The notes: generated by a model from the letters alone, not told the origin. Counted from the first letter of the stretch, positions 4,034 to 39,890 are shown. The stretch: 64,000 nt of DNA from an uncultured Candidatus Saccharibacteria bacterium (GCA_964427275.1 CAYRSR010000003.1:168-64167); one strand, 5' to 3'. Numbers and translations are program-made.

Positions 4034-4089
4034 AAACTTCTTTATTTAACGGCTGGTAAAGTTCTCTAGTTTATTACAACGTTGCCTAG

Positions 4090-4160
4090 TGCCAGCAAGA
4101 GGAATCGAACCTCTGTCTAGGGTTTATGAGTCCCTCGTTCTACCATTGAACTATGCTGGC
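4090..4160 (-). tRNA. tRNA with a CAT anticodon (Met, fMet or Ile2-lysidine)
   Basis: Reverse complement is GCCAGCA-TA-GTTCAATGGTAGAAC-G-AGGGA-CUCAUAA-ACCCU...GGTTCGATTCC...TGCTGGC-A. The anticodon stem has three consecutive G-C pairs. Confidence 0.7.
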
Positions 4161-4161
4161 T

Positions 4162-4231
4162 TGCGGGGGCAGGAGTTGAACCTGCTCCTAGAGGTTATGG
4201 GCCTCTCGAGGTAACCGTTCCTCCACCCCGC
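4162..4231 (-). tRNA. second tRNA with a CAT anticodon (Met/fMet/Ile2), carrying C instead of U at position 33
   Basis: Reverse complement is GCGGGGU...GAGG-AACGGTTA-CCTC-G-AGAGG-CCCAUAA-CCUCU...GCAGG-TTCAACT-CCTGC-CCCCGC-A. It sits immediately next to the previous tRNA. Confidence 0.65.
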
Positions 4232-4296
4232 ACTGTTATTATAGAAAATAAAATAAATAAATCAAGGTAAGTCTTTAAGCTAAAAGCTTTGGGGTA

Positions 4297-6785: not shown

Positions 6786-7182
6786 AATCTACCTCCTTCC
6801 TTATTTTTTGTTTTTAAGTAACCTATTAAATTTATACCATGCTTTTTTTAGATTTGTCAAAGGTAAACTGCAAAAGACGAGATACATTTTTGACATCTCC
6901 AAAATGCTAGATATTGGTATAATTAGTGAAAGAAAGGGTCGAAAATCATCAAAAATTAGTCAAAATGCACCTCATCAATATAGCAAAAAGAGTATTTTCA
7001 CAATGGTGAAATTTGTTAAGAGATTTTAGATATTTGCCATTTATCAATTTTCAATTTTCAATTACCCAGAAGAATTTAACTTCAAACTATCTCGCAAGCT
7101 TTAGGATACAAAACTCCTATTGAGATAATCTGTGGAAGGAGTCAATGTCAAAAATGTACTCATCTTGTACAAGTACAAGGGT

Positions 7183-10975: not shown

Positions 10976-11088
10976 TAAAAATTCAAAATTCAAAAATCAA
11001 AAATCAAAATGACAATTTAAAATTCAAAATGAACAAATGTTAAAATGATTTTGAAATTTGCTAATTTTAACATTTTACATTTATTATT

Positions 11089-20657: not shown

Positions 20658-20842
20658 AATACTTAACTTTTTCGACCTTTAGTTTAGTAGCAATAGCTAG
20701 GTTAATTCTGCTAAACGATTATAGTTTTATCTCAATTTAATGTCAATATTTTTGAGTAACTTTTTTCAATTCAGTTCGTTTTATCTAATGGAAGCAAAAT
20801 TGAAAGTTATCCACAAGGTTGAGAATTTTTTAGTCGGACTTG

Positions 20843-25950: not shown

Positions 25951-26084
25951 TTTGTGGATAATTAACTTGATTTTAATGGTTACATTCCATAATATTAAAA
26001 TAGAAATTAAATAACAAGTAGGTTAAAAGCAAAATTTAGTCAATTTGATAGAAAAATTTAAAGGTCGAAAAAAGCAAATAACCT

Positions 26085-28457: not shown

Positions 28458-30293
28458 ATGTGTGGGATAGCTGGATATATTGGCAAAAGGAATGCAGTGA
28501 AGGTCATTTTAGCCGGACTGAAGAAGCTGCAATATCGTGGTTACGATTCGGTTGGAATTTCGATAATGGATGAAGGTAAAGTTAAAACTATTAAAGCAGT
28601 CGGGAAAATATCTAATTTAGAAAAAAAGCTGATTAGATTAAACCTGAAAGGAAATTTGGGAATTGGACATACTAGATGGGCTACCTGCGGAAAAGTAAAC
28701 TTAGCTAATGCTCATCCTCAATCCGATTGTTCTAGAAAAATATTTTTAGTTCACAATGGAATTGTTGAGAATTATTTAGAACTAAAAAGAAAACTAGAAA
28801 AACTGGGTCATCAATTTAGCTCTCAGACCGACACCGAAGTTTTAGCTCATTTAATTGAGGAAGAACTAATTAAAAATCCAGGGATAAAGCTAGAAAAAGC
28901 TACTGAATTAGCTTTACAAAGAGTAATTGGAACTTATGCTCTGGTAATAATTTCAGAATATCAGCCAGATAAGCTGATAGTTGCAACTTGCTCTAGTCCA
29001 TTGGTTATTGGTCTGGGAAAAAAAGAGTACTTTGTAGCTTCCGATCCTTTAGCAATTGTTTCTAGAACTAAAAAGGTTATTTATCTAAAAGATGGACATA
29101 TTGGAGTAATTACTCCCTATGGTTGCCAAATTTATTTTAAAAAGAAACTTGTTAAGCAAGATATTCATAGTTTGGATTTTGATGAACTGAAAGTTAGTAA
29201 AAAACAGTTTCCTTACTTTATGGCCAAGGAAATTTTTGAACAACCAGTTTCAATTGAGAATTCAATTACCGGGAGAATAGATTTAAAAAATTGTAATTCG
29301 AAATTAGGTGGAATAGAGGATGTACTAGATAAATTGGCTAAAATTGAACAATTAATAATTATTGGTTGTGGTTCAGCTTATCTGGCCGGGCTTTTTGGGG
29401 AGTATTTTTTAGAAGAGTATTCAAATATAAGTTGTCATTCTTATTTAGCTTCTGAATTTAGGTATCGAAATCCAGTTTTAAATCAAAACACGGCATTTTT
29501 GTTTATATCTCAATCTGGAGAAACTGCTGACACTCTGGCTGTACTCAGGGAAGTAAAGAAGAAAAATATTTTAAGCTTAGGGATAGTTAATGTAGTTGGT
29601 TCCTCAATTGCTAGAGAAACTGATGCTGGAATTTATAACCACTGTGGTCCTGAAATTGGAGTAGCTTCAACTAAGGCATTTACTTCTCAGTTGACTATTT
29701 TAATTCTTCTAGGAATTCTTTTGGGAAGACAAAGAAAGTTGTCAAAAAAAATAGCCTGCCGTATTTTAACTGAATTAAAGAATTTACCGGGCTTAATTAA
29801 GCAGGTACTTCAACAAAGCTCTTACTTAAAAAGGTTAGCTAAGAAATATTTAAAGTATGATAACTTTTTATTCATTGGGCGAAAATATAATTATCCAATT
29901 GCAATGGAAGGAGCATTAAAACTTAAAGAAATTAGCTATGTTCATGCTGAAGGTTATCCTTCTGGAGAAATGAAACATGGCCCAATAGCTATGATTGATA
30001 AAGGCTTTCCTACCGTTGCGATATGCCCAAAAGATTCGGTATATTCAAAAACTATTTCTAATATTCTGGAAATTAAGACTAGGAGTGGAAAGGTAATTGC
30101 TGTGGCTACTAAAGGAGATAGGAAAATCAAGAAAATAGTTGATGATGTAATTTATGTTCCCAAAATTTTTGAACCAATTCAACCAATTTTAGAGGTTATT
30201 CCTTTACAACTATTTGCTTATTATTTTTCAGTTTTAAAAGGATTGGATCCGGACAAACCCAGAAATTTAGCTAAATCGGTAACTGTAGAGTAA
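28458..30293 (+). CDS. glmS: glutamine--fructose-6-phosphate aminotransferase
   Basis: N-terminal nucleophile MCGIAGY and two SIS domains. Confidence 0.93.
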   Translation: MCGIAGYIGKRNAVKVILAGLKKLQYRGYDSVGISIMDEGKVKTIKAVGKISNLEKKLIRLNLKGNLGIGHTRWATCGKVNLANAHPQSDCSRKIFLVHNGIVENYLELKRKLEKLGHQFSSQTDTEVLAHLIEEELIKNPGIKLEKATELALQRVIGTYALVIISEYQPDKLIVATCSSPLVIGLGKKEYFVASDPLAIVSRTKKVIYLKDGHIGVITPYGCQIYFKKKLVKQDIHSLDFDELKVSKKQFPYFMAKEIFEQPVSIENSITGRIDLKNCNSKLGGIEDVLDKLAKIEQLIIIGCGSAYLAGLFGEYFLEEYSNISCHSYLASEFRYRNPVLNQNTAFLFISQSGETADTLAVLREVKKKNILSLGIVNVVGSSIARETDAGIYNHCGPEIGVASTKAFTSQLTILILLGILLGRQRKLSKKIACRILTELKNLPGLIKQVLQQSSYLKRLAKKYLKYDNFLFIGRKYNYPIAMEGALKLKEISYVHAEGYPSGEMKHGPIAMIDKGFPTVAICPKDSVYSKTISNILEIKTRSGKVIAVATKGDRKIKKIVDDVIYVPKIFEPIQPILEVIPLQLFAYYFSVLKGLDPDKPRNLAKSVTVE

Positions 30294-30327
30294 TTTTATA
30301 AGGAATTGCAAAGTTTTTAATTCTCAC

Positions 30328-30462
30328 TTATCCACAATCAAACCCTTGACAAACTATCTTAATTGAATAACATTAAAAATGGAGCTGGAAGGAAATCTAT
30401 TCTTCGGAATAGAGGACCAACCAGCTCCACTGGGGGACGAATCGAAAGATTTGTCCCCCATT
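30328..30462 (+). repeat. left copy of a 135-bp inverted repeat (about 97% identical to 33166..33300, reverse complement)
   Basis: Base-by-base comparison with the reverse complement of 33166-33300 shows 3-4 mismatches over 135 bp. Confidence 0.8.
30346..30373 (+). promoter_or_regulatory. promoter-like TTGACA-16-TAACAT inside the left repeat
   Basis: TTGACA at 30346-30351 and TAACAT at 30368-30373. The predicted start (about 30381) is the first base of the hairpin. Confidence 0.35.
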
Positions 30463-30465
30463 TTT
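30381..30465 (+). ncRNA. candidate structured small RNA or attenuator: UUCG-capped hairpin plus GAAA-capped intrinsic terminator
   Basis: Hairpin 1 is GGAGCTGG...CTATTC-UUCG-GAATAG...CCAGCTCC (30381-30428). Hairpin 2 is TGGGGGAC-(AATC-GAAA-GATT)-GTCCCCCA (30431-30460), followed by TTTTT. Confidence 0.3.
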
Positions 30466-30738
30466 AATTCAAGAATTGAATAGGCAACTATTTCTAATTT
30501 GCAATTTTTAATTCACAATTTTTAATTTTCAATCAATTTTCAATTTTCAATTACCAATTTATAAATTTTAACATTAAATCATTTTGAGTTTTAAATTGCC
30601 TGCCCGCCAATCGTCCGACGGCTCAAGGCGTCTGGCAGGCGGGTAATTTTTAATTTTGATATTTGAATTTTAAATTTTATTTTGTAGATTGGCATCATAC
30701 ATTGTAAATTCGTTGATAACCTTATATATTAATTTTCA

Positions 30739-30777
30739 AATGCAACGTTGTATGCAACGTTGCATACAACGTGCTAA
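30739..30777. promoter_or_regulatory. cluster of CAACGTTG palindromes (putative operator) about 80 nt upstream of recG
   Basis: ATGCAACGTTGTATGCAACGTTGCATACAACGTGC contains a perfect 12-bp palindrome TGCAACGTTGCA flanked by CAACGTTG half-sites. The whole forms a near-perfect 36-bp palindrome. Confidence 0.4.
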
Positions 30778-30854
30778 AAATTGATAGAATCTATTCCCGC
30801 TCCCTCATATTCTTAGAAATTTACTATTTAGTCAAAATCAGCTAATATAATTAA

Positions 30855-32969
30855 ATGCTTGAATTGAATACACCACTTAATCAAGTTCCAGGTTTAGGTT
30901 ATAGATTTTTAAAAAAATTTAACAAACTGAATTTAATCACAGTTAAAGATTTACTCTGGCATTTTCCTTCTAGGTACGAAGATTTTTCCAGAGTTAAAAA
31001 AATTGCCGATGTTAGAATTGGAGAACAGCTAACTATTCAGGGACAGGTGAAAACTATTTCAGCATTCAGAACTCCTAAAAAAAGAATGAAAATAGTTCAG
31101 GCATTAATCAGTGATGGTAGTGGAACCATCCAGGCTATTTGGTTTAACCAATTTTATATTCGAACTAGACTAAAAAAAGGAACTCTAGTTAACTTGGCTG
31201 GAAAAGTTAGTGTATATAAAAATAAGCTTTGTTTAAATAATCCAACTTACGAAATTCTCAAAAACAAAGTCCCAATTCACACTGCTAGAATTGTTCCAAT
31301 TTATCCTGAAACCAAAGGACTAACCTCAAAAGGAATTCGGCATTTCATTAGAAAGATTTTGATGAATCTTAAGCCAATCCCCGAATTTCTGCCAAAATTA
31401 GCCTTAGTTGAGCTTAACTTCCCAGAAATAAACAAAGCTTTATGGCAAATTCATTTCCCTGAAAATTTATCAGAAATAAATCCAGCTAAAAAAAGATTTG
31501 CATTCCAGGATTTATTTTTACTCCAATTAAACAATTTAATTGAAAGGTGGAATATCAGAAAACATAAAGCCTATCCATTCAAAATTGATTATAAACGAAT
31601 TAAGCAACTTTTAGCCAAGCTTCCGTTTCAATTAACTATTTCTCAAAAAAAATGCCTATTTCAAATTCTAAAAGACTTACAAAATGAATATCCAATGAAT
31701 CGTTTACTTCAAGGAGAAGTTGGTTCAGGAAAAACTATTTTAAGCTTTCTGGCAGCCAATGTTGTAGCTGAACAAAACCAGCAAGTTGCCCTGCTTGCAC
31801 CTACCGAAATTTTAGCATTTCAGCATTATCAAGCTTTTAAAAAATTTTTTCCTAAGTTTGAAAAAGGAGTTTGTATTTTAACTTCCAAACAAAAAAGAAT
31901 TTTTTATTCAGAAAAATTGGAATGTAAAACTACCAAAAAAGAACTATTACCTCTAATAGAATCAGGTAAAATCAAAATAGTAATTGGTACTCAAACTTTG
32001 ATCCAAAAAGAGGTTAAATTTAGTAATTTAGCTTTAGTAGTAATTGACGAACAACATAGATTTGGCGTAAAACAAAGAGCTAAATTACTTAAAGAAGGTA
32101 CTACAAATATCCCTCACTTTCTATCTATGACTGCTACTCCAATTCCCAGAACTCTAGGTTTAGCTATTTTCGGTGACCTGGATATGTCTAGAATTGAAGA
32201 ACTTCCTAAAAATCGAAAGCCAGTAATCACCAAAATAATTCCTCCAAAAAAAAGAAAACAAGCTTATTCATTTATTAGAGCTGAAATTAAGAAAGGAAAT
32301 CAGGCTTTTGTAGTTTGTCCAAGGATAGAACCCACTAATAAAGAAGCTAATAATCTAAATAGAAAAAAATTAATCTGGGCTGAAGTAAAGGCAGTAAAAG
32401 AAGAATATCAAAAGTTATCTAAAAAAATTTTTCCCGATTTAAAAGTTGAAATGCTCCATGGGAAGATGGATTCAGAGAAGAAGGAAAAGATTATAAACCG
32501 ATTTAAAGATGGAAAAATTGATATTTTAGTTTCAACTTCAGTAATTGAAGTTGGAATTGATATTCCTAACGCTACTATTATGGTAATTGAAGGGGCAGAA
32601 AGATTTGGATTAGCTCAACTTTATCAACTCAGGGGAAGAGTTGGGAGAAGAGAAAAACAATCTTATTGCTTTTTATTCAGTGATTTAGAATCAAAAACAT
32701 CCAGACAAAGACTAGAATCAATAATTAAAGCTAAAAATGCTTTTGAGTTAGCTGAGCAGGATCTGAAACTAAGAGGACCGGGTGAATTTTTAGGAGAAAG
32801 TCAAACTGGACTCCCAGATTTAGCAATGCAAGCCTTAAATAATCCAGAATTAGTAAAAGTTTCTAGAGAAATTGCAATAAAAACCTTAAAAATTGACCCA
32901 AGCTTAAAAGCTTTTCCAGAACTAAGAAAGAAAGTGATTGAGTTTTACAAAGAAGTACATCTGGAATAA
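30855..32969 (+). CDS. recG: ATP-dependent DNA helicase RecG
   Basis: Wedge domain plus SF2 helicase motifs (GEVGSGKT, DEQHRFG, YQLRGRVGR). Confidence 0.88.
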   Translation: MLELNTPLNQVPGLGYRFLKKFNKLNLITVKDLLWHFPSRYEDFSRVKKIADVRIGEQLTIQGQVKTISAFRTPKKRMKIVQALISDGSGTIQAIWFNQFYIRTRLKKGTLVNLAGKVSVYKNKLCLNNPTYEILKNKVPIHTARIVPIYPETKGLTSKGIRHFIRKILMNLKPIPEFLPKLALVELNFPEINKALWQIHFPENLSEINPAKKRFAFQDLFLLQLNNLIERWNIRKHKAYPFKIDYKRIKQLLAKLPFQLTISQKKCLFQILKDLQNEYPMNRLLQGEVGSGKTILSFLAANVVAEQNQQVALLAPTEILAFQHYQAFKKFFPKFEKGVCILTSKQKRIFYSEKLECKTTKKELLPLIESGKIKIVIGTQTLIQKEVKFSNLALVVIDEQHRFGVKQRAKLLKEGTTNIPHFLSMTATPIPRTLGLAIFGDLDMSRIEELPKNRKPVITKIIPPKKRKQAYSFIRAEIKKGNQAFVVCPRIEPTNKEANNLNRKKLIWAEVKAVKEEYQKLSKKIFPDLKVEMLHGKMDSEKKEKIINRFKDGKIDILVSTSVIEVGIDIPNATIMVIEGAERFGLAQLYQLRGRVGRREKQSYCFLFSDLESKTSRQRLESIIKAKNAFELAEQDLKLRGPGEFLGESQTGLPDLAMQALNNPELVKVSREIAIKTLKIDPSLKAFPELRKKVIEFYKEVHLE

Positions 32970-33097
32970 ATTTTCGAAATTCTTTTAAAATTAAGGATAT
33001 CGACAGTCGGTTCGATTACTGTTACTATTATTCCAGCCAATATTAGCAAAACAACTACAACTATTAACAATTCAATCAAAGTGAATCCATTCTTCAT
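32945..33097 (-). CDS. short type IV pilin-like protein (class III signal peptide), 50 aa
   Basis: Unlisted ORF MKNGFTLIELLIVVVVLLILAGIIVTVIEPTVDILNFKRISKIYSRCTSL. It has the canonical prepilin cleavage/methylation motif G|FTLIEL with Glu at +5. It overlaps the recG 3' end by 25 nt on the opposite strand. Confidence 0.5.
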   Translation of the reverse strand: MKNGFTLIELLIVVVVLLILAGIIVTVIEPTVDILNFKRISKIYSRCTSL

Positions 33098-33162
33098 TTT
33101 TAACTTTCTTATTAGTATACCACGAGATTGACAAACGATAAGTTGGTAAGCTTACTTTTATA

Positions 33163-33247
33163 AAAAATGGGGGACAAATCTTTCGATTCGTCCCCCAGTG
33201 GAGCTGGTTGGTCCTCTATTCCGAAGAATAGATTTCCTTCCAGCTCC
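33163..33247 (-). ncRNA. second (inverted) copy of the candidate structured RNA/attenuator, upstream of the pilin-like ORF
   Basis: Same two hairpins on the minus strand. The promoter-like TTGACA is at 33277-33282 (minus sense), and a U6 tract follows the terminator hairpin, about 70 nt before the pilin ATG. Confidence 0.3.
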
Positions 33248-33300
33248 ACTATTAATGTTATTCAATTAAGATAATTTGTCAAGGGTTTGATTGTGGATAA
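33166..33300 (-). repeat. right copy of the 135-bp inverted repeat
   Basis: Reverse complement of 30328-30462 with 3-4 mismatches. Confidence 0.8.
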
Positions 33301-33490
33301 CTTTTATAGGTTATCAACCAATTTGCAATATATGATGCCAATCTGCAAAAGTTAAAAATTTAAAGTGTGAAAATCAAAATGTAAAAAGGTCATCAACGAA
33401 TTTACGAATAAAAGTTAGAAATTAGAAGTTAGAAGTTGGAAGTTGATAATTGATTGAAAATTAGAAATTGAAAATTGTAAATTGAATTAT

Positions 33491-33519
33491 TTGCCACTCT
33501 TAGGTTTTTGTGCTAAAAT
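33491..33519 (+). promoter_or_regulatory. promoter TTGCCA-17-TAAAAT that ends 6 nt before the ATG (leaderless)
   Basis: TTGCCA at 33491-33496, TAAAAT at 33514-33519 and ATG at 33526. Confidence 0.45.
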
Positions 33520-33525
33520 CTAATT

Positions 33526-34104
33526 ATGATTATTCAGTGGTACGGAGAAAATTGTTTCAGATTAAAAATTGGAGATACATCAATTCTGACCGACCCTACT
33601 AATAAAAAACTAAAAGGAGATTTAACTATTTACACCTCATATCCGTTTAAGGATTTAGAAAAATTTCAGTCAGCTGGAATAATAAATTACCCCGGGGAAT
33701 ACGAATTAAAAAATATCTTTGTAACCGGGTTTTTAAATCCTGGTTCAAATCAGCAAACTATTAAGACAATTTATCAAATTTCCTGGAATAATTTTTTGAT
33801 TGGAATTTTAGGGTATTTGAAACCAAAAGAATTAAATGAATGGCAGAAGGAACTTGGTAATATTGACATCTTATTTATTCCGGTTGGTGGAAAGCCATTT
33901 ATTTCAATTGAACAAGCGGTTGAATTAGTGAAATATTTTAAACCTAAGTTGGTGATTCCTACTCTATTTAAGCAAATTAAGCAGGTTAGTTTATTTGCCA
34001 AGCAACTTGGAAAATTTAAATTAAAACCTCAACTTAAAATAGCTATAACCAGTTCAGGTTTAGAACGACAGGAATTGGAAATAGGTTGTTTAACCAAAAG
34101 CTAA
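33526..34104 (+). CDS. MBL-fold metal-dependent hydrolase (UPF0173-like)
   Basis: MIIQWYGENCFRL...TDP in the N-terminus, resembling the MKIQWLGHSCF-type hydrolase family. Confidence 0.55.
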   Translation: MIIQWYGENCFRLKIGDTSILTDPTNKKLKGDLTIYTSYPFKDLEKFQSAGIINYPGEYELKNIFVTGFLNPGSNQQTIKTIYQISWNNFLIGILGYLKPKELNEWQKELGNIDILFIPVGGKPFISIEQAVELVKYFKPKLVIPTLFKQIKQVSLFAKQLGKFKLKPQLKIAITSSGLERQELEIGCLTKS

Positions 34105-38025: not shown

Positions 38026-38415
38026 TTGGTTTATAATCTAAGTATGTATAAGTTTATAATCCTGGCTGGGTTAATGCCTGAATGTCCTGAAACTGGGTGC
38101 ACTTTTTGTAATTTAATGCAGTTGGGAGAAAACATCTTAGATTTTTTAATTGGGTTAGCTATTCCAGTTAGTGTTGGTTTTATTGCCTGGGGTGGAATAA
38201 TATTAATAACCGCTGGTGGTAGTGAAAGAAAAGTAAGTGAAGGTAGAAGGATTGTTACTGGTGCAATAACTGGATTAGTTATTGTGCTTTGTTCCTGGTT
38301 AATTTTAAGTACACTCCTTCAGATAATTGCCGGGCAGGAGTGGTACAAACCCTGGAAAAAAATTGAATGTCTTTCAAGTCAAAAACTAGCCAGGGTTGAA
38401 CTTAAAAGATTATGA
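38026..38415 (+). CDS. small two-helix membrane protein, VirB2/TrbC-pilin-like (paralog 1)
   Basis: Helix-GG-loop-helix layout ending ...LLQIIAG. It shares a motif with the next two ORFs. It has an N-terminal Cys cluster CPETGCTFC. Confidence 0.35.
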   Translation: MVYNLSMYKFIILAGLMPECPETGCTFCNLMQLGENILDFLIGLAIPVSVGFIAWGGIILITAGGSERKVSEGRRIVTGAITGLVIVLCSWLILSTLLQIIAGQEWYKPWKKIECLSSQKLARVELKRL

Positions 38416-38738
38416 TTTTATCAATTGTTCACAAAGTTTTAGCAGTAGAATTACCTAATCCGCTAAGGGCTGAAAGTATTGCTGAAGTGATTGAAAGAGT
38501 TATTGACGGATTAATGTGGGTAGCTACCCCGCTGGCTACCATAATGATTTTAGTGGCAGCTTTTCAGTATATGACTTCTGGGGGAAATCCGGAAAACATA
38601 AATCGAGCCAAAAGAACTCTACTTTGGACAGTAATTGGTTATGGAATAATTTTGGTTTCAAGAGGAATAATAGAAATAGTTCAACAACTATTAGGAGCTC
38701 CAGCTTCACCTCCAACTCCACCATTAATTTCAGTTTAA
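38412..38738 (+). CDS. small two-helix membrane protein, VirB2/TrbC-pilin-like (paralog 2)
   Basis: Shared motif AAFQYMTSGGNPENINRAKRTLLWTVIGYGIILVSRGIIEIVQQLLGA. Confidence 0.35.
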   Translation: MILSIVHKVLAVELPNPLRAESIAEVIERVIDGLMWVATPLATIMILVAAFQYMTSGGNPENINRAKRTLLWTVIGYGIILVSRGIIEIVQQLLGAPASPPTPPLISV

Positions 38739-38806
38739 AAACATTAAACTTGACAAGAGGGTAATTAATGGTTAAATAAGATAAAGGTCGAGAGTTTGAA
38801 TAAAAA

Positions 38807-39139
38807 ATGAAGATTATCAAACAAATTTTACCTCTAGTAGTGTTATTTTCAGTAGTGTCACTTCCCTTATTAGCTATCGAGCATGCTCCTGCACCGGTTA
38901 GAAGCATTGAGGATGTAATTGCTATATTAAACCGAGTTGTTGATTGGTTCTTTACTATACTGATGATAGTAGCAGTAATATTTATTTTTGTGGCTGCTGT
39001 TGGATATTTAACCAGTGGCGGGAAGGAGGATAAGATTATTAAAGCTCAAAGACAGTTTATTTATGCTGTAGTAGCAATTGGCATAGCTCTAGTTGCTCGA
39101 GGAATAGAATTTATTGTTAGACAATTACTTGGAGCTTAA
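38807..39139 (+). CDS. small two-helix membrane protein, VirB2/TrbC-pilin-like (paralog 3)
   Basis: Signal peptide plus AAVGYLTSGGKEDKIIKAQRQFIYAVVAIGIALVARGIEFIVRQLLGA. An AAAGGTCGA motif sits 14 nt upstream. Confidence 0.35.
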   Translation: MKIIKQILPLVVLFSVVSLPLLAIEHAPAPVRSIEDVIAILNRVVDWFFTILMIVAVIFIFVAAVGYLTSGGKEDKIIKAQRQFIYAVVAIGIALVARGIEFIVRQLLGA

Positions 39140-39287: not shown

Positions 39288-39454
39288 CACTTAGTATAAA
39301 CTTACTTAATTAAACTGGACTTTTAAGGTCGATTTATACCTGTCTTGATTTTAACTTTTTATACTTTCTTTTATGTCTTCCTTGACCGGGAGAGATAAGC
39401 TAGAAAGTATAAAAATAGTAGAGGAAGGCAGGGAAAGTAATTCTCAAGTTCTCA

Positions 39455-39522
39455 AGAACATTAGAATACTAGCAGAAGAAAAAGGACAACTCTTAAGTTC
39501 TTGAGAACATTAGAATAATTTC
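39455..39522. promoter_or_regulatory. two 22-bp direct repeats with a palindromic core GTTCTYRAGAAC (putative ArsR-family operator)
   Basis: AGTTCTCAAGAACATTAGAATA and AGTTCTTGAGAACATTAGAATA. A third copy (GTTCTTAAGAACATTGGAGTA) is at 39863-39886. Confidence 0.4.
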
Positions 39523-39599
39523 ACCTTCCGAAAATATACAAAATAGGTAAAAAATGATATAATTTTAAAAGCAGATAAATTGATAGATGTAAATTAAAT

Positions 39600-39890
39600 A
39601 TGAAATTGCCACTTAATAGGAAATATAATTATCGTCAACTGGAGAGAATAGTGAAAGGTTTTTCAAATCACCGAAGGATTGAGATATTAAGACTTCTGAA
39701 AAAATATCCTGGGCTTTCAGTAGTTGAAATTTTTGAAAAACTCAATGTTAATTTTAAAACAATTGCTGGGCACATTCAGCGATTAACCATTGCTGGTTCG
39801 GTAATGAAAAAATCCTTGGGAGCAAGCGTCTGTCATCGACTTGCAGAAAGAGGAGAGGTAGTTCTCAAGTTCTTAAGAACATTGGAGTAA
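39600..39890 (+). CDS. ArsR/SmtB-family transcriptional regulator
   Basis: Winged HTH (NHRRIEILRLLKKYPGLSVVEI...FKTIAGHIQRLTIAGSV). Confidence 0.65.
   Translation: MKLPLNRKYNYRQLERIVKGFSNHRRIEILRLLKKYPGLSVVEIFEKLNVNFKTIAGHIQRLTIAGSVMKKSLGASVCHRLAERGEVVLKFLRTLE

What the first reader, a model, noticed from the sequence alone, without database searches (positions are those of the whole stretch)
30328..33300. recG is bracketed by a 135-bp, about 97% identical inverted repeat, with permuted accessory segments around it
Positions 30328-30462 and 33166-33300 are reverse complements with only 3-4 mismatches. That is far above background for this AT-rich intergenic DNA, so the duplication is recent or conserved. 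The 2.7-kb segment between them carries recG and a 50-aa pilin-like ORF. Further shared pieces are present on both sides but in a different order: GATTGGCATCATAyATTGyAAATTsGTTGATAACC and (CAATTTT)n-like tracts. Left is A-S-hairpin-B. Right, read in the same sense, is S-B-A. A repeat of this size and identity could mediate RecA-dependent inversion of the recG segment. Alternatively it is a MITE-like or REP-like element inserted twice.
Basis: seen in the sequence. Interest (0 to 1): 0.75.

Follow-up and report, generated by a model that had tools for sequence, protein, structure and literature searches.

The report
Dispersed promoter-hairpin-terminator repeat flanking recG
The inverted repeat around recG is real, but its arms are two copies of a roughly 150-bp intergenic unit (promoter, RNA hairpin, terminator) found at five or more places in this uncultivated Patescibacteria genome, so it is not a recG-specific switch.

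Summary
Arms 30328-30473 and 33155-33300 are reverse complements (146 nt, 6 mismatches).

The interpretation mostly does not hold. Each arm is a compact transcription-unit-like module: a TTATCCACA 9-mer, a TTGACA-16-TAACAT promoter, a 48-nt imperfect hairpin, and a strong intrinsic terminator. The two modules point towards each other across recG.

The same module sits in three other contexts in contigs that co-occur with the window and share its composition:
- upstream of a methyltransferase-macro gene pair
- between dinB and an HhH-GPD-like gene, where it is 100% identical to the left arm
- upstream of grpE-dnaK, where the terminator is missing

A related strain shows a further arrangement. 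The hairpins are far more conserved than the promoter part (2/79 against 15/53 variable columns).

The module has no terminal inverted repeats and no target duplication. It matches no Rfam family and nothing in representative genomes, viral contigs, phage records or plasmid records. It is absent from the two relatives' recG loci examined.

No assembly shows recG inverted, there is no recombinase next to it, and inversion would not rewire any promoter.

Best reading: a lineage-specific multi-copy small-RNA-like repeat spread by recombination. Its function is not shown.

The parts
30328..30473 (+). Left arm: copy 1 of the A module (box, promoter, hairpin 1, terminator)
   Evidence: Inverted repeat I1. 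Aligns with 5 other copies. 100% identical over 132-137 nt to the L014/L022 copy.
33155..33300 (-). Right arm: copy 2 of the A module, transcribed leftwards towards the recG 3' end
   Evidence: 97.7% identical to copy 1 over the 132-nt core.
30328..30336 (+). TTATCCACA, a perfect DnaA-box-type 9-mer 9 nt upstream of the -35. Its twin is at 33300-33292 (-).
   Evidence: only 4 such 9-mers in the window, all intergenic. Kept as TTAT(C/T)CACA in all 6 copies. Binding by DnaA is inferred, not tested.
30346..30373 (+). Sigma-70-type promoter TTGACA-16-TAACAT. Its twin is at 33282-33255 (-).
   Evidence: 10 of 12 matches. The -35 is invariant in 6 copies; the -10 varies only at tolerated positions (TAACAT, TAATAT, TAGCAT). 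The same promoter core without hairpins sits about 20 nt upstream of the start codon of a 448-aa gene in L021, 9371-9340.
30381..30428 (+). Hairpin 1: GGAGCUGG-AA-GG-AAA-UCUAUUC-UUCG-GAAUAGA-GGA-CC-AA-CCAGCUCC. It has 17 pairs, two symmetric purine loops and a UUCG cap. Its twin is at 33247-33200 (-).
   Evidence: Folding gives z-scores of -8.8 and -10.8. One variable column of 48 among 6 copies, a U-A to U-G change.
30431..30465 (+). Intrinsic terminator: 13-bp stem (7 G-C), GAAA loop, U5-6. Its twin is at 33197-33162 (-).
   Evidence: (terminator scan). Exactly this 31-nt stem-loop is missing in the grpE copy, where hairpin 1 is followed directly by U5.
30474..30501 (+). Linker TAATTCAAGAAT..., shared with the L015/L019 and L021 copies
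30502..30580 (+). S: period-7 AT-rich tandem tract (TTTCAAT)n. Its counterpart is at 33406-33484.
   Evidence: Similar tracts lie in other spacers and upstream of the other A copies.
30593..30649 (+). GC-rich hairpin followed by a U-rich run, a second terminator-like structure between A and recG. Left side only.
   Evidence: (-29 kcal/mol, z -3.8), and (unique among the fetched loci).
30680..30722 (+). B module (GTAGATTGGCAT..ATTGTAAATTCGTTGATAACC) with promoter-like hexamers. Its twin is at 33350-33308 (-), directly upstream of the right A copy.
   Evidence: Also upstream of rpmF-nusB in L026-28 and L021. A diverged form lies upstream of the L013 copy.
33386..33408 (-). Extra partial B motif TTCGTAAATTCGTTGATGAC
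   Evidence: (I12). The same motif lies upstream of rpmF in L026.
30740..30772 (+). 2.8 tandem copies of the palindrome-containing unit ATGCAACGTTGC between B and recG. Left side only.
30855..32969 (+). recG, the gene bracketed by the two A copies
32945..33097 (-). 50-aa ORF with a prepilin N-terminal methylation motif, overlapping the recG 3' end. Probably a pilin gene fragment. It has its own extended -10 (GTGGTATACT).
   Evidence: Sequence read. No gene with this product is on record.

Best explanation
The two arms are two members of a lineage-specific family of dispersed intergenic repeats, here called the A module, about 150 bp long. Each copy looks like a self-contained small transcription unit.

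From 5' to 3', each copy has:
- a DnaA-box-like 9-mer
- a near-consensus sigma-70 promoter
- a transcript of about 85-90 nt that would start within a few bases of the foot of a 48-nt imperfect hairpin
- a strong intrinsic terminator at the end of that transcript

The most likely product is a short, almost fully base-paired RNA. Its sequence, not only its fold, is constrained. That fits recognition by a protein better than base-pairing through a single-stranded seed.

Copies appear to have spread, and to be kept alike, by homologous recombination or gene conversion among AT-rich promoter regions. Those regions also share other modules (B and the period-7 tracts). Transposition does not fit.

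recG is bracketed because one copy lies in each neighbouring spacer, in convergent orientation. The resulting inverted repeat is a by-product. It could in principle support rare RecA-mediated inversion, but it is not a recG-specific device.

Shown: the repeat, its dispersal, its anatomy, and its pattern of conservation. Inferred: transcription, termination, the RNA product, and the mode of spread.
For: Dispersal:
- A pattern scan of JGI metagenomes found three further contigs that share only this unit with the window.
- Those contigs recur in the same samples as the window's own contigs: ERZ27248139, ERZ27248349, SRR7051295 and JGI 3300021469.
- Their tetranucleotide profiles correlate with the window at 0.98-0.99, like the window's two halves (0.98). 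Other Patescibacteria loci give 0.86-0.94.

Anatomy:
- Promoter and terminator scans.
- Folding z-scores of -8.8 and -10.8, with the two-hairpin fold the predicted minimum-energy and centroid structure (20% and 60% of the ensemble).

Conservation:
- 15 of 53 promoter-block columns vary, against 2 of 79 hairpin columns (Fisher p = 2e-5).
- The -35 is invariant, and changes in the -10 sit at tolerated positions.
- In the terminator-less copy, hairpin 1 is followed directly by U5, so that copy still looks like a promoter-hairpin-U-run unit.

Independence from neighbouring genes:
- recG is separated from A by a second terminator-like hairpin and has its own TATAAT.
- The pilin fragment and grpE have their own promoter-like sites.

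Spread by recombination rather than transposition:
- Borders are ragged and modular, with no terminal inverted repeat and no target duplication.
- Linker types are shuffled between loci and strains.

Not specific to recG:
- The left arm is identical to the dinB-locus copy and only 97.7% identical to its partner.
- RecG loci of the nearest relatives (60-61% identity) share no synteny, bracket or hairpin.
Against: - There are no expression data. The promoter, transcript ends and terminator are predictions.
- The copies are too similar for covariation: 16 of 17 hairpin-1 pairs never vary. An RNA-level function therefore cannot be separated from a DNA-level palindrome function, or from homogenisation by gene conversion.
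- The HhH-GPD-like gene starts 17 nt after the terminator with no obvious promoter of its own. That fits a leader or attenuator role better than a free-standing RNA gene.
- Assigning all copies to one genome rests on co-occurrence and composition, not on a closed assembly.
- The census is incomplete. The metagenome scan returned neither the window's own copies nor L021, although both match the pattern.
- Two copies landing in adjacent spacers by chance is only about 2-10% likely for 5-10 copies in roughly 800 spacers (my estimate). A local duplication or some selective reason for the bracket is therefore not excluded.
Confidence: 0.6

Rival explanations
1. Invertible recG segment. The inverted repeat exists to allow, or is maintained by, RecA-dependent or site-specific inversion of the 2.7-kb recG segment.
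For: - The arms share 86 bp of perfect identity, which I take to be enough for RecA-dependent recombination (general knowledge).
- recG's composition at four-fold degenerate sites, G/(G+C) = 0.34, resembles minus-strand genes (0.36) more than plus-strand genes (0.48). This is only p = 0.07, and three other plus-strand genes are as low.
- Short-read contigs break at the arms.
- The related-strain contig L021 differs in gene order from the main strain exactly at the 3' end of an A copy.
Against: - No contig shows the inverted junctions.
- The break at the left arm is explained by the 100%-identical copy at the dinB locus.
- No invertase or integrase gene is next to the segment.
- The arms are ordinary members of a dispersed family and are not each other's closest relatives.
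- Inversion would exchange identical promoter units and so change no promoter-gene connection.
- Neither of the two relatives examined brackets recG.
Confidence: 0.07
2. Mobile non-autonomous element (MITE, REP or Correia-like) inserted twice.
For: - Several nearly identical copies lie in unrelated spacers.
- The sequence is rich in palindromes.
- The size is typical of small bacterial repeats.
- It lies at a gene-order difference between strains.
Against: - The two ends share no inverted repeat, and there is no flanking direct duplication.
- The borders differ between copies. The left arm lacks CCTATAAAAG. Three different 3' continuations occur. One copy lacks only the terminator stem-loop.
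- No transposase or RAYT-like gene was seen in the stretches examined.
- Only about five copies are seen.
- Nothing similar occurs in the genome representatives, viral contigs, phage records or plasmid records searched.
Confidence: 0.13
3. Cis-acting leader or attenuator cassette. A supplies the promoter and a structured 5' leader whose terminator gates expression of the gene downstream. It could define a stress or DNA-repair regulon (recG, an HhH-GPD-like gene next to dinB, grpE-dnaK), possibly under DnaA control.
For: - In the three informative head-to-tail contexts (glmS to recG, L013 and L015), A points the same way as the next gene.
- The HhH-GPD-like gene begins 17 nt after the terminator with no room for another promoter.
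- Three of five contexts involve repair or chaperone genes.
- The conserved TTAT(C/T)CACA box lies next to the -35.
Against: - The orientation bias is not significant. The divergent contexts are uninformative, and the right arm points against recG.
- recG, grpE and the pilin fragment have their own promoter-like sites. recG is also shielded by a second terminator-like hairpin.
- The two hairpins are independent and very stable, and I saw no competing antiterminator fold.
- groES-groEL and gyrA in the window lack the unit.
- The grouping of genes by function was made after the fact.
Confidence: 0.15
4. Leaderless small protein gene. The ATG at 30379, 5 nt after the -10, opens a stop-free frame (MELEGNLFFGIEDQPAPLGDESKDLSPI...) that runs through both hairpins.
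For: - The frame is open in all copies, and at the HhH locus it is in frame with the downstream gene. Gene callers produced fusion proteins P0130 and P0133.
- Other genes here also have a -10 only a few bases before the ATG.
Against: - The right arm has GTG in place of ATG.
- The C-terminus differs in every copy.
- Both substitutions seen inside the frame change the amino acid.
- A HMMER scan of 1.84 billion protein representatives found only the HhH fusion variant and two spurious tandem-repeat proteins.
- The extreme predicted RNA stability is unusual for coding sequence.
Confidence: 0.03
5. Assembly artefact: a chimeric join or inverted duplication created by the assembler.
For: Contigs of several short-read assemblies end inside or beside the arms.
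Against: - The glmS-A junction, and the stretch running from the left A copy through recG and the right A copy to the MBL-fold hydrolase gene, are each reproduced with 0 mismatches by ENA contigs that are separate records from the window.
- The arms differ at 3 core positions and have different flanks.
- The JGI contig dinB-A-HhH is consistent with that pairing.
Confidence: 0.02

Closest known systems
Multi-copy small RNA gene families (for example Qrr1-5 of Vibrio, LhrC1-5 of Listeria, csRNAs of streptococci; from general knowledge)
   Same: Each copy has its own promoter, a short structured transcript and an intrinsic terminator. Several near-identical paralogues sit in separate spacers. A conserved putative regulator site lies next to the -35.
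   Different: Those RNAs expose single-stranded seed regions and have known regulators and targets. Here the predicted RNA is almost entirely base-paired, no target or partner is known, expression is unproven, and no Rfam family matches.
Correia repeat-enclosed elements of Neisseria, and similar promoter- or terminator-bearing small repeats (ERIC, RUP)
   Same: A dispersed intergenic repeat of about 100-150 bp that carries promoter elements and forms long imperfect RNA hairpins of the kind RNase III cuts. It is found at gene-order differences between strains.
   Different: Correia elements have 26-bp terminal inverted repeats, a TA target duplication, an IHF site and hundreds of copies (general knowledge). 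The A module has none of these, and only about five copies are seen.
BOX elements of Streptococcus pneumoniae
   Same: Modular mosaics of short intergenic repeat units combined in different orders (boxA, boxB, boxC there; A, B, S here), with stable predicted folds.
   Different: There is no sequence relationship. BOX elements lack a complete promoter-terminator unit and are much more numerous (general knowledge).
Invertible DNA switches (hin, fimS, Bacteroides invertible promoters)
   Same: Inverted repeats bracket a DNA segment.
   Different: Those switches use inverted repeats of roughly 10-30 bp, a dedicated site-specific recombinase, and a promoter or gene 5' end whose orientation matters (general knowledge). 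Here the 146-bp arms are copies of a dispersed unit, no recombinase is adjacent, and orientation would not change expression logic.
Promoter-proximal leader RNAs followed by terminators (attenuators, riboswitches, put-type processive antitermination RNAs of phage HK022)
   Same: The order is promoter, then structured RNA, then intrinsic terminator, then (in one context) a gene immediately after.
   Different: I saw no alternative antiterminator pairing, there is no match to any known riboswitch or leader family, and most downstream genes have their own promoters.

Membership tests
Invertible segment (inverton or phase-variation switch) | Inverted repeats flank the segment | tested here: met
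   146-nt inverted repeat, 96% complementary
Invertible segment (inverton or phase-variation switch) | Both orientations are present in the population | tested here: inconclusive
   Only the window's orientation appears in the 2-3 assemblies that span a junction. Reads were not available.
Invertible segment (inverton or phase-variation switch) | A dedicated site-specific recombinase is encoded nearby | tested here: not met
   The neighbours are glmS, recG, an MBL-fold hydrolase gene, gyrA, a solute-binding protein gene and T4SS pilin genes.
Invertible segment (inverton or phase-variation switch) | Orientation changes which gene is connected to a promoter | tested here: not met
   Both arms carry the same inward-facing promoter unit, so inversion swaps like for like (reasoning from the map).
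MITE (including Correia-type elements) | Terminal inverted repeats at the element's ends | tested here: not met
   The 5' end (CCTATAAAAGTTATCCACAA) and the 3' end (GTCCCCCATTTTT) share no inverted similarity.
MITE (including Correia-type elements) | Target-site duplication and sharp, constant borders | tested here: not met
   Borders differ among copies, and no flanking direct repeat is common to the copies.
MITE (including Correia-type elements) | Many dispersed copies | tested here: inconclusive
   At least 5 copies in about 107 kb of sequence, chosen partly because it contained copies. The whole genome is not available.
REP / BIME / REPIN | Palindrome of about 20-40 nt with a conserved 5' tetranucleotide, tens to hundreds of copies, and a RAYT gene | tested here: not met
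   The unit is 150 nt with its own promoter. The covariance model finds no further copies in the window. No RAYT-like gene was seen in the stretches examined.
Any curated RNA family (Rfam 15) | A covariance-model match at or near the gathering score | tested here: not met
   The gathering-threshold scan found only tRNAs. The E<=10 scan of 30200-33600 gave only weak hits far below their thresholds.
Structured non-coding RNA in general | Base pairs supported by compensatory changes | tested here: inconclusive
   16 of 17 hairpin-1 pairs never vary, and one changes from U-A to U-G. The copies are too similar to test this.
Structured non-coding RNA in general | A discrete transcript with a defined 5' end and a terminator-defined 3' end | not testable with these tools
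   The promoter and terminator are predictions. No transcript data were available.
Riboswitch or attenuator leader | Mutually exclusive terminator and antiterminator folds | tested here: not met
   The minimum-energy and centroid folds are the two independent hairpins (20% and 60% of the ensemble), and I saw no competing pairing.
TIGR guide-RNA array (considered for the AT-rich tracts because the host is a Patescibacterium) | Tandem units of about 36 nt with edge and loop repeats next to a Nop-domain Tas gene (PMC12045711) | tested here: not met
   The tracts have a period of 7, or 14 to 18. No Nop-domain gene is among the neighbours.
DnaA-controlled promoter | A consensus DnaA box TTATNCACA next to the promoter | tested here: met
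   TTATCCACA lies 9 nt upstream of the -35 and is kept as TTAT(C/T)CACA in all 6 copies.
DnaA-controlled promoter | DnaA binds and changes transcription | not testable with these tools
   No binding or expression data were available.

The most novel reading that the evidence does not exclude
The A module could be a new kind of multi-copy structured small RNA, or an RNA-protein recognition hairpin, in a Patescibacterium, transcribed from a DnaA-box-flanked promoter.

Its dispersed copies would then do two things. They would link replication or stress status to genes such as recG, the HhH-GPD-like gene next to dinB, and grpE-dnaK. That link could work by read-through, or by pairing with the antisense copy carried in the recG 3' untranslated region.

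They would also act as recombination hot spots that reshuffle gene order between strains, including occasional inversion of recG.
Probability: 0.15. Interest if true: 0.55.

Novelty: new member of a known kind. Interest (0 to 1): 0.3.

Why it matters
Small dispersed repeats and small RNA genes have hardly been described in the reduced genomes of Patescibacteria, where spacers are short and regulation is poorly understood.

A repeat that packages a complete promoter, a strongly conserved hairpin and a terminator gives a concrete candidate for transcript mapping in these organisms. It recurs next to repair and chaperone genes.

For assembly and binning, it explains why contigs of this organism break at these spacers. 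It also warns against reading the bracket around recG as a dedicated switch.

As it stands, this is a modest, lineage-restricted finding without functional evidence.

Tried and rejected
1. Known RNA family. The Rfam gathering scan of the whole window and the E<=10 scan of the locus gave nothing relevant.

2. Wider distribution.
- The hairpin pattern in 185,579 representative genomes gave only 8 chance matches inside coding DNA of unrelated taxa.
- Viral contigs were scanned with three patterns, and phage and plasmid records with blastn. None matched.

3. Diverged copies. A covariance model of hairpin 1 found none in the window, none in the other loci of this genome, and none in two relatives' recG loci.

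4. Coding reading.
- The word-indexed protein search with the A-frame peptide found nothing; an earlier try failed because the query was too short.
- The full HMMER scan found only the HhH fusion variant plus two artefacts.

5. recG-specific conservation. The nearest RecG relatives are only 60-61% identical. They have no shared gene order and no bracket.

6. Historical inversion from composition. The skew at four-fold degenerate sites is suggestive but not significant (p = 0.07).

7. Replication origin. This was considered because of the DnaA box, the AT-rich tracts and nearby gyrA. It was rejected because the unit is multi-copy, each copy has a single box, and cumulative GC skew shows no turning point at 30-33 kb.

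8. Sigma-54 promoter in module B. TGGCAT..TTGC has a spacing one base too long, and two of the three versions read TTGT (read).

9. TIGR array for the AT-rich tracts. Rejected.

10. SRP RNA. The 8-mer GGAAGGAA is shared with 4.5S RNA, but it sits in a different place in the hairpin, and no SRP model matches (comparison from memory).

11. Orientation bias towards downstream genes. I first counted 5 of 5, then discounted it, because divergent spacers are uninformative and the right arm faces the 3' end of recG.

12. Look-ups that failed. The pilin fragment and P0124 are not on record.

Full report
**Observation**

The inverted repeat is real. The repeat finder reports arms 30328-30473 and 33155-33300, 146 nt, 96% complementary, 2681 nt apart. 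My own comparison finds 6 mismatches over 146 nt.

The 48-nt core occurs exactly twice in the window and in none of 100 shuffles. The pair is the longest repeat of any kind in the 64 kb.

Between the arms lie recG (30855-32969, +) and a 50-aa ORF on the minus strand with a prepilin N-methylation motif.

The accessory segments also exist:
- B, 43 nt at 91%.
- AT-rich tracts at 77%. These are period-7 tandem repeats that also match other spacers of the window, so they are a generic feature of this genome's promoter-upstream DNA.

**Anatomy of an arm**

Each arm is a compact unit that looks like a transcription unit. From 5' to 3' it contains:
- TTATCCACA.
- Nine bases later, TTGACA-16-TAACAT.
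- About six bases after the -10, a 48-nt imperfect hairpin: 8 bp, an AA/AA loop, 2 bp, an AAA/GGA loop, 7 bp and a UUCG cap.
- ACU.
- A 13-bp GC-rich hairpin with a GAAA loop, followed by five or six U.

Folding energies are -52 and -55 kcal/mol, with z-scores of -8.8 and -10.8. The two-hairpin fold is the minimum-energy and centroid structure, at 20% and 60% of the ensemble.

The left unit is on the plus strand and the right unit on the minus strand, so they converge on recG. No Rfam family matches, either at gathering thresholds over the whole window or at E<=10 over the locus.

**Organism**

RecG's best foreign matches are 55-61% identical. They come from Patescibacteria such as Paceibacteria, Wolfebacteria and Colwellbacteria. 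The organism therefore has no close sampled relative.

Contigs identical to the window occur in ENA assemblies ERZ27248139 and ERZ27248349 and in Logan SRR7051295.

**The unit is dispersed**

A degenerate hairpin pattern found nothing relevant in 185,579 representative genomes or in viral contigs. In JGI metagenome 3300021469 it hit three contigs that share only this unit with the window, at 90-100% identity over 102-179 nt. The contexts are:
- L013: between a 204-aa membrane protein gene and a 504-aa nucleotidyltransferase-like methyltransferase followed by a Macro-domain gene.
- L014: between dinB and a weakly HhH-GPD-like gene.
- L015: upstream of grpE-dnaK.

These loci recur in the same samples as the window. 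Their tetranucleotide profiles correlate with the window at 0.98-0.99, as well as the window's halves correlate with each other. Other Patescibacteria loci give 0.86-0.94. I therefore treat them as parts of the same genome, without proof.

A related-strain contig, L021 from JGI 3300017593, adds a sixth context. The dinB side and the unit differ from the main strain only by scattered single-base changes up to the terminator's U-run. After that the sequence continues into linker-S-B-rpmF-nusB instead of the HhH gene. The main strain's rpmF-nusB upstream region has B and S but no A. This is either a real gene-order difference at the unit or a chimeric join.

**Family structure**

In the alignment of copies, the shared block runs from CCTATAAAAGTTATCCACAA to the terminator's U-run, but the borders are ragged:
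- The left arm lacks the first nine bases.
- Three different 3' continuations occur.
- The grpE copy lacks exactly the 31-nt terminator stem-loop, so that hairpin 1 is followed directly by U5.
- There are no terminal inverted repeats and no common flanking duplication.

Pairwise identities show that the left arm is identical to the dinB-locus copy (132 of 132) but 97.7% identical to its partner across recG.

Variation is concentrated in the promoter block: 15 of 53 columns vary there, against 2 of 79 in the hairpins (Fisher p = 2e-5). The -35 is invariant, the -10 varies only at tolerated positions, and TTAT(C/T)CACA is kept in all copies. The same promoter core without hairpins sits about 20 nt upstream of the start codon of a 448-aa gene in L021.

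A covariance model of hairpin 1 finds no further or diverged copies in the window, in the other loci, or in two relatives' recG loci. With so little variation, base-pair covariation cannot be tested.

**Relation to neighbouring genes**

- recG is separated from the left unit by a second terminator-like GC-rich hairpin. It is also separated by module B, which carries promoter-like hexamers, by a triple GCAACGTTGC palindrome, and by a TATAAT four bases before its ATG.
- The pilin fragment has an extended -10 of its own.
- grpE has its own promoter and palindromes.
- Only the HhH-GPD-like gene, which starts 17 nt after the terminator, would depend on the unit.

I first counted all copies as co-oriented with the next gene. 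Two contexts are divergent spacers and therefore uninformative, and the right arm faces the 3' end of recG. The bias is not significant.

**Coding alternative**

An ATG (GTG in the right arm) 5 nt after the -10 opens a stop-free frame through both hairpins. Several results argue against a gene:
- The C-termini differ in every copy.
- Both substitutions in the frame change the amino acid.
- A HMMER scan of 1.84 billion protein representatives found only a strain variant of the HhH fusion and two tandem-repeat artefacts.

**Inversion**

- Every contig that spans a junction has the window's orientation.
- ENA contig k141_12544 ends at 30468 and k141_685204 starts at 30336, so the two overlap by exactly the arm. 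The 100%-identical copy at the dinB locus, whose contigs also break there, explains this.
- No recombinase gene is adjacent.
- recG's composition at four-fold degenerate sites leans towards that of minus-strand genes, but not significantly (p = 0.07).
- Because both arms are the same inward-facing unit, inversion would not change any promoter-gene connection.
- The nearest RecG relatives share neither gene order nor a bracket.

**Conclusion**

The arms are two members of a lineage-specific, multi-copy promoter-hairpin-terminator repeat. It most probably spread and was homogenised by recombination among similar AT-rich promoter regions.

The most likely product is a short, nearly fully paired RNA whose sequence is constrained. 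A leader or attenuator role is possible in some contexts.

The bracket around recG is best seen as a by-product that could allow rare homologous inversion. I do not see a dedicated switch.

The nearest known kinds are multi-copy small RNA gene families and small promoter-bearing intergenic repeats of the Correia or BOX type. The unit fails the defining tests for MITE, REP and inverton membership.

Novelty is modest: a new member of a known kind, in a lineage where such elements are barely described.

Noticed in passing
window 20807-20815 (+) and 25953-25961 (-): These are the only other TTATNCACA matches in the window. Both are perfect TTATCCACA boxes in spacers next to promoters or start codons. 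The one at 20803-20816 shares the 14-mer AAAGTTATCCACAA with the A module and sits 2 nt upstream of TTGAGA-17-TGGTATAAT. This hints that DnaA, or another factor that reads this site, acts as a transcription factor here.
   Followed up: partly
window 30740-30772: The 12-nt unit ATGCAACGTTGC, which contains the palindrome GCAACGTTGC, is repeated 2.8 times between module B and the recG start. It looks like an operator and is found only on the left side.
   Followed up: partly
window 30593-30649: A hairpin of about 70% GC followed by a U-rich run sits in a 31% GC spacer. It is absent from the otherwise homologous S-AT-B region upstream of rpmF in L021, so it is an insertion or deletion difference between module copies.
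   Followed up: partly
window 39427-39529 and 39851-39889; L026 about 1005-1040; L016 about 2695-2725: This is a second family of palindromic intergenic motifs (TTCTCAAGTTCTTGAGAACATTAGAAT and ATTCTAACAT..ATGTTAGAAT). It lies near an HTH gene and two MBL-fold genes that hit the anti-Pycsar Apyc1 Pfam family.
   Followed up: no
window 7043-7066, 10978-11046, 30491-30597, 33412-33486; L019 9625-9735; L016 2760-2805: Period-7 AT-rich tandem tracts, (TTTCAAT)n and (AAGTTAG)n, recur upstream of promoters across this genome. A period of 7 is not the helical repeat, so their role is unclear.
   Followed up: partly
window 30843-30857; L026 about 1390-1410; A module 30368-30381: Several genes (recG, rpmF, and the frame in A) have a -10 hexamer only 3-7 nt before the ATG. 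This suggests leaderless or near-leaderless mRNAs in this Patescibacterium.
   Followed up: no
L021 4600-5423 compared with L022 2600-3420 and L026 958-1577: Contigs that encode the same dinB protein (main strain versus a related-strain contig) differ in what follows the A copy next to dinB: rpmF-nusB-rnc in one, the HhH-GPD-like gene in the other. The break lies at the terminator's U-run. It is either a real rearrangement at the repeat or a chimeric assembly.
   Followed up: partly
window 30855-32969: recG has the third-lowest G/(G+C) at four-fold degenerate sites among the 23 plus-strand genes with enough sites to score (0.34, against a pooled value of 0.48). That is close to minus-strand genes (0.36), with p = 0.07.
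   Followed up: yes
window 32945-33097 (-): A 50-aa ORF carries a complete prepilin cleavage/methylation motif, but its tail is antisense to the recG 3' end. It looks like the stump of a pilin gene truncated by a past rearrangement.
   Followed up: partly
window 38026-39139: Three consecutive small genes hit the T4SS pilin and TrbC (VirB2-like) families in a Patescibacteria genome.
   Followed up: no
window 4089-4232: Two tRNA-Met (CAT) genes lie directly next to each other with no spacer, followed by tRNA-Asp.
   Followed up: no
Metagenome-contig scan: The scan returned neither a JGI copy of the window's recG locus nor L021, although RecG is listed as held by JGI and L021 carries the pattern. 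The collection is therefore incomplete for this organism, and copy counts are lower bounds.
   Followed up: no
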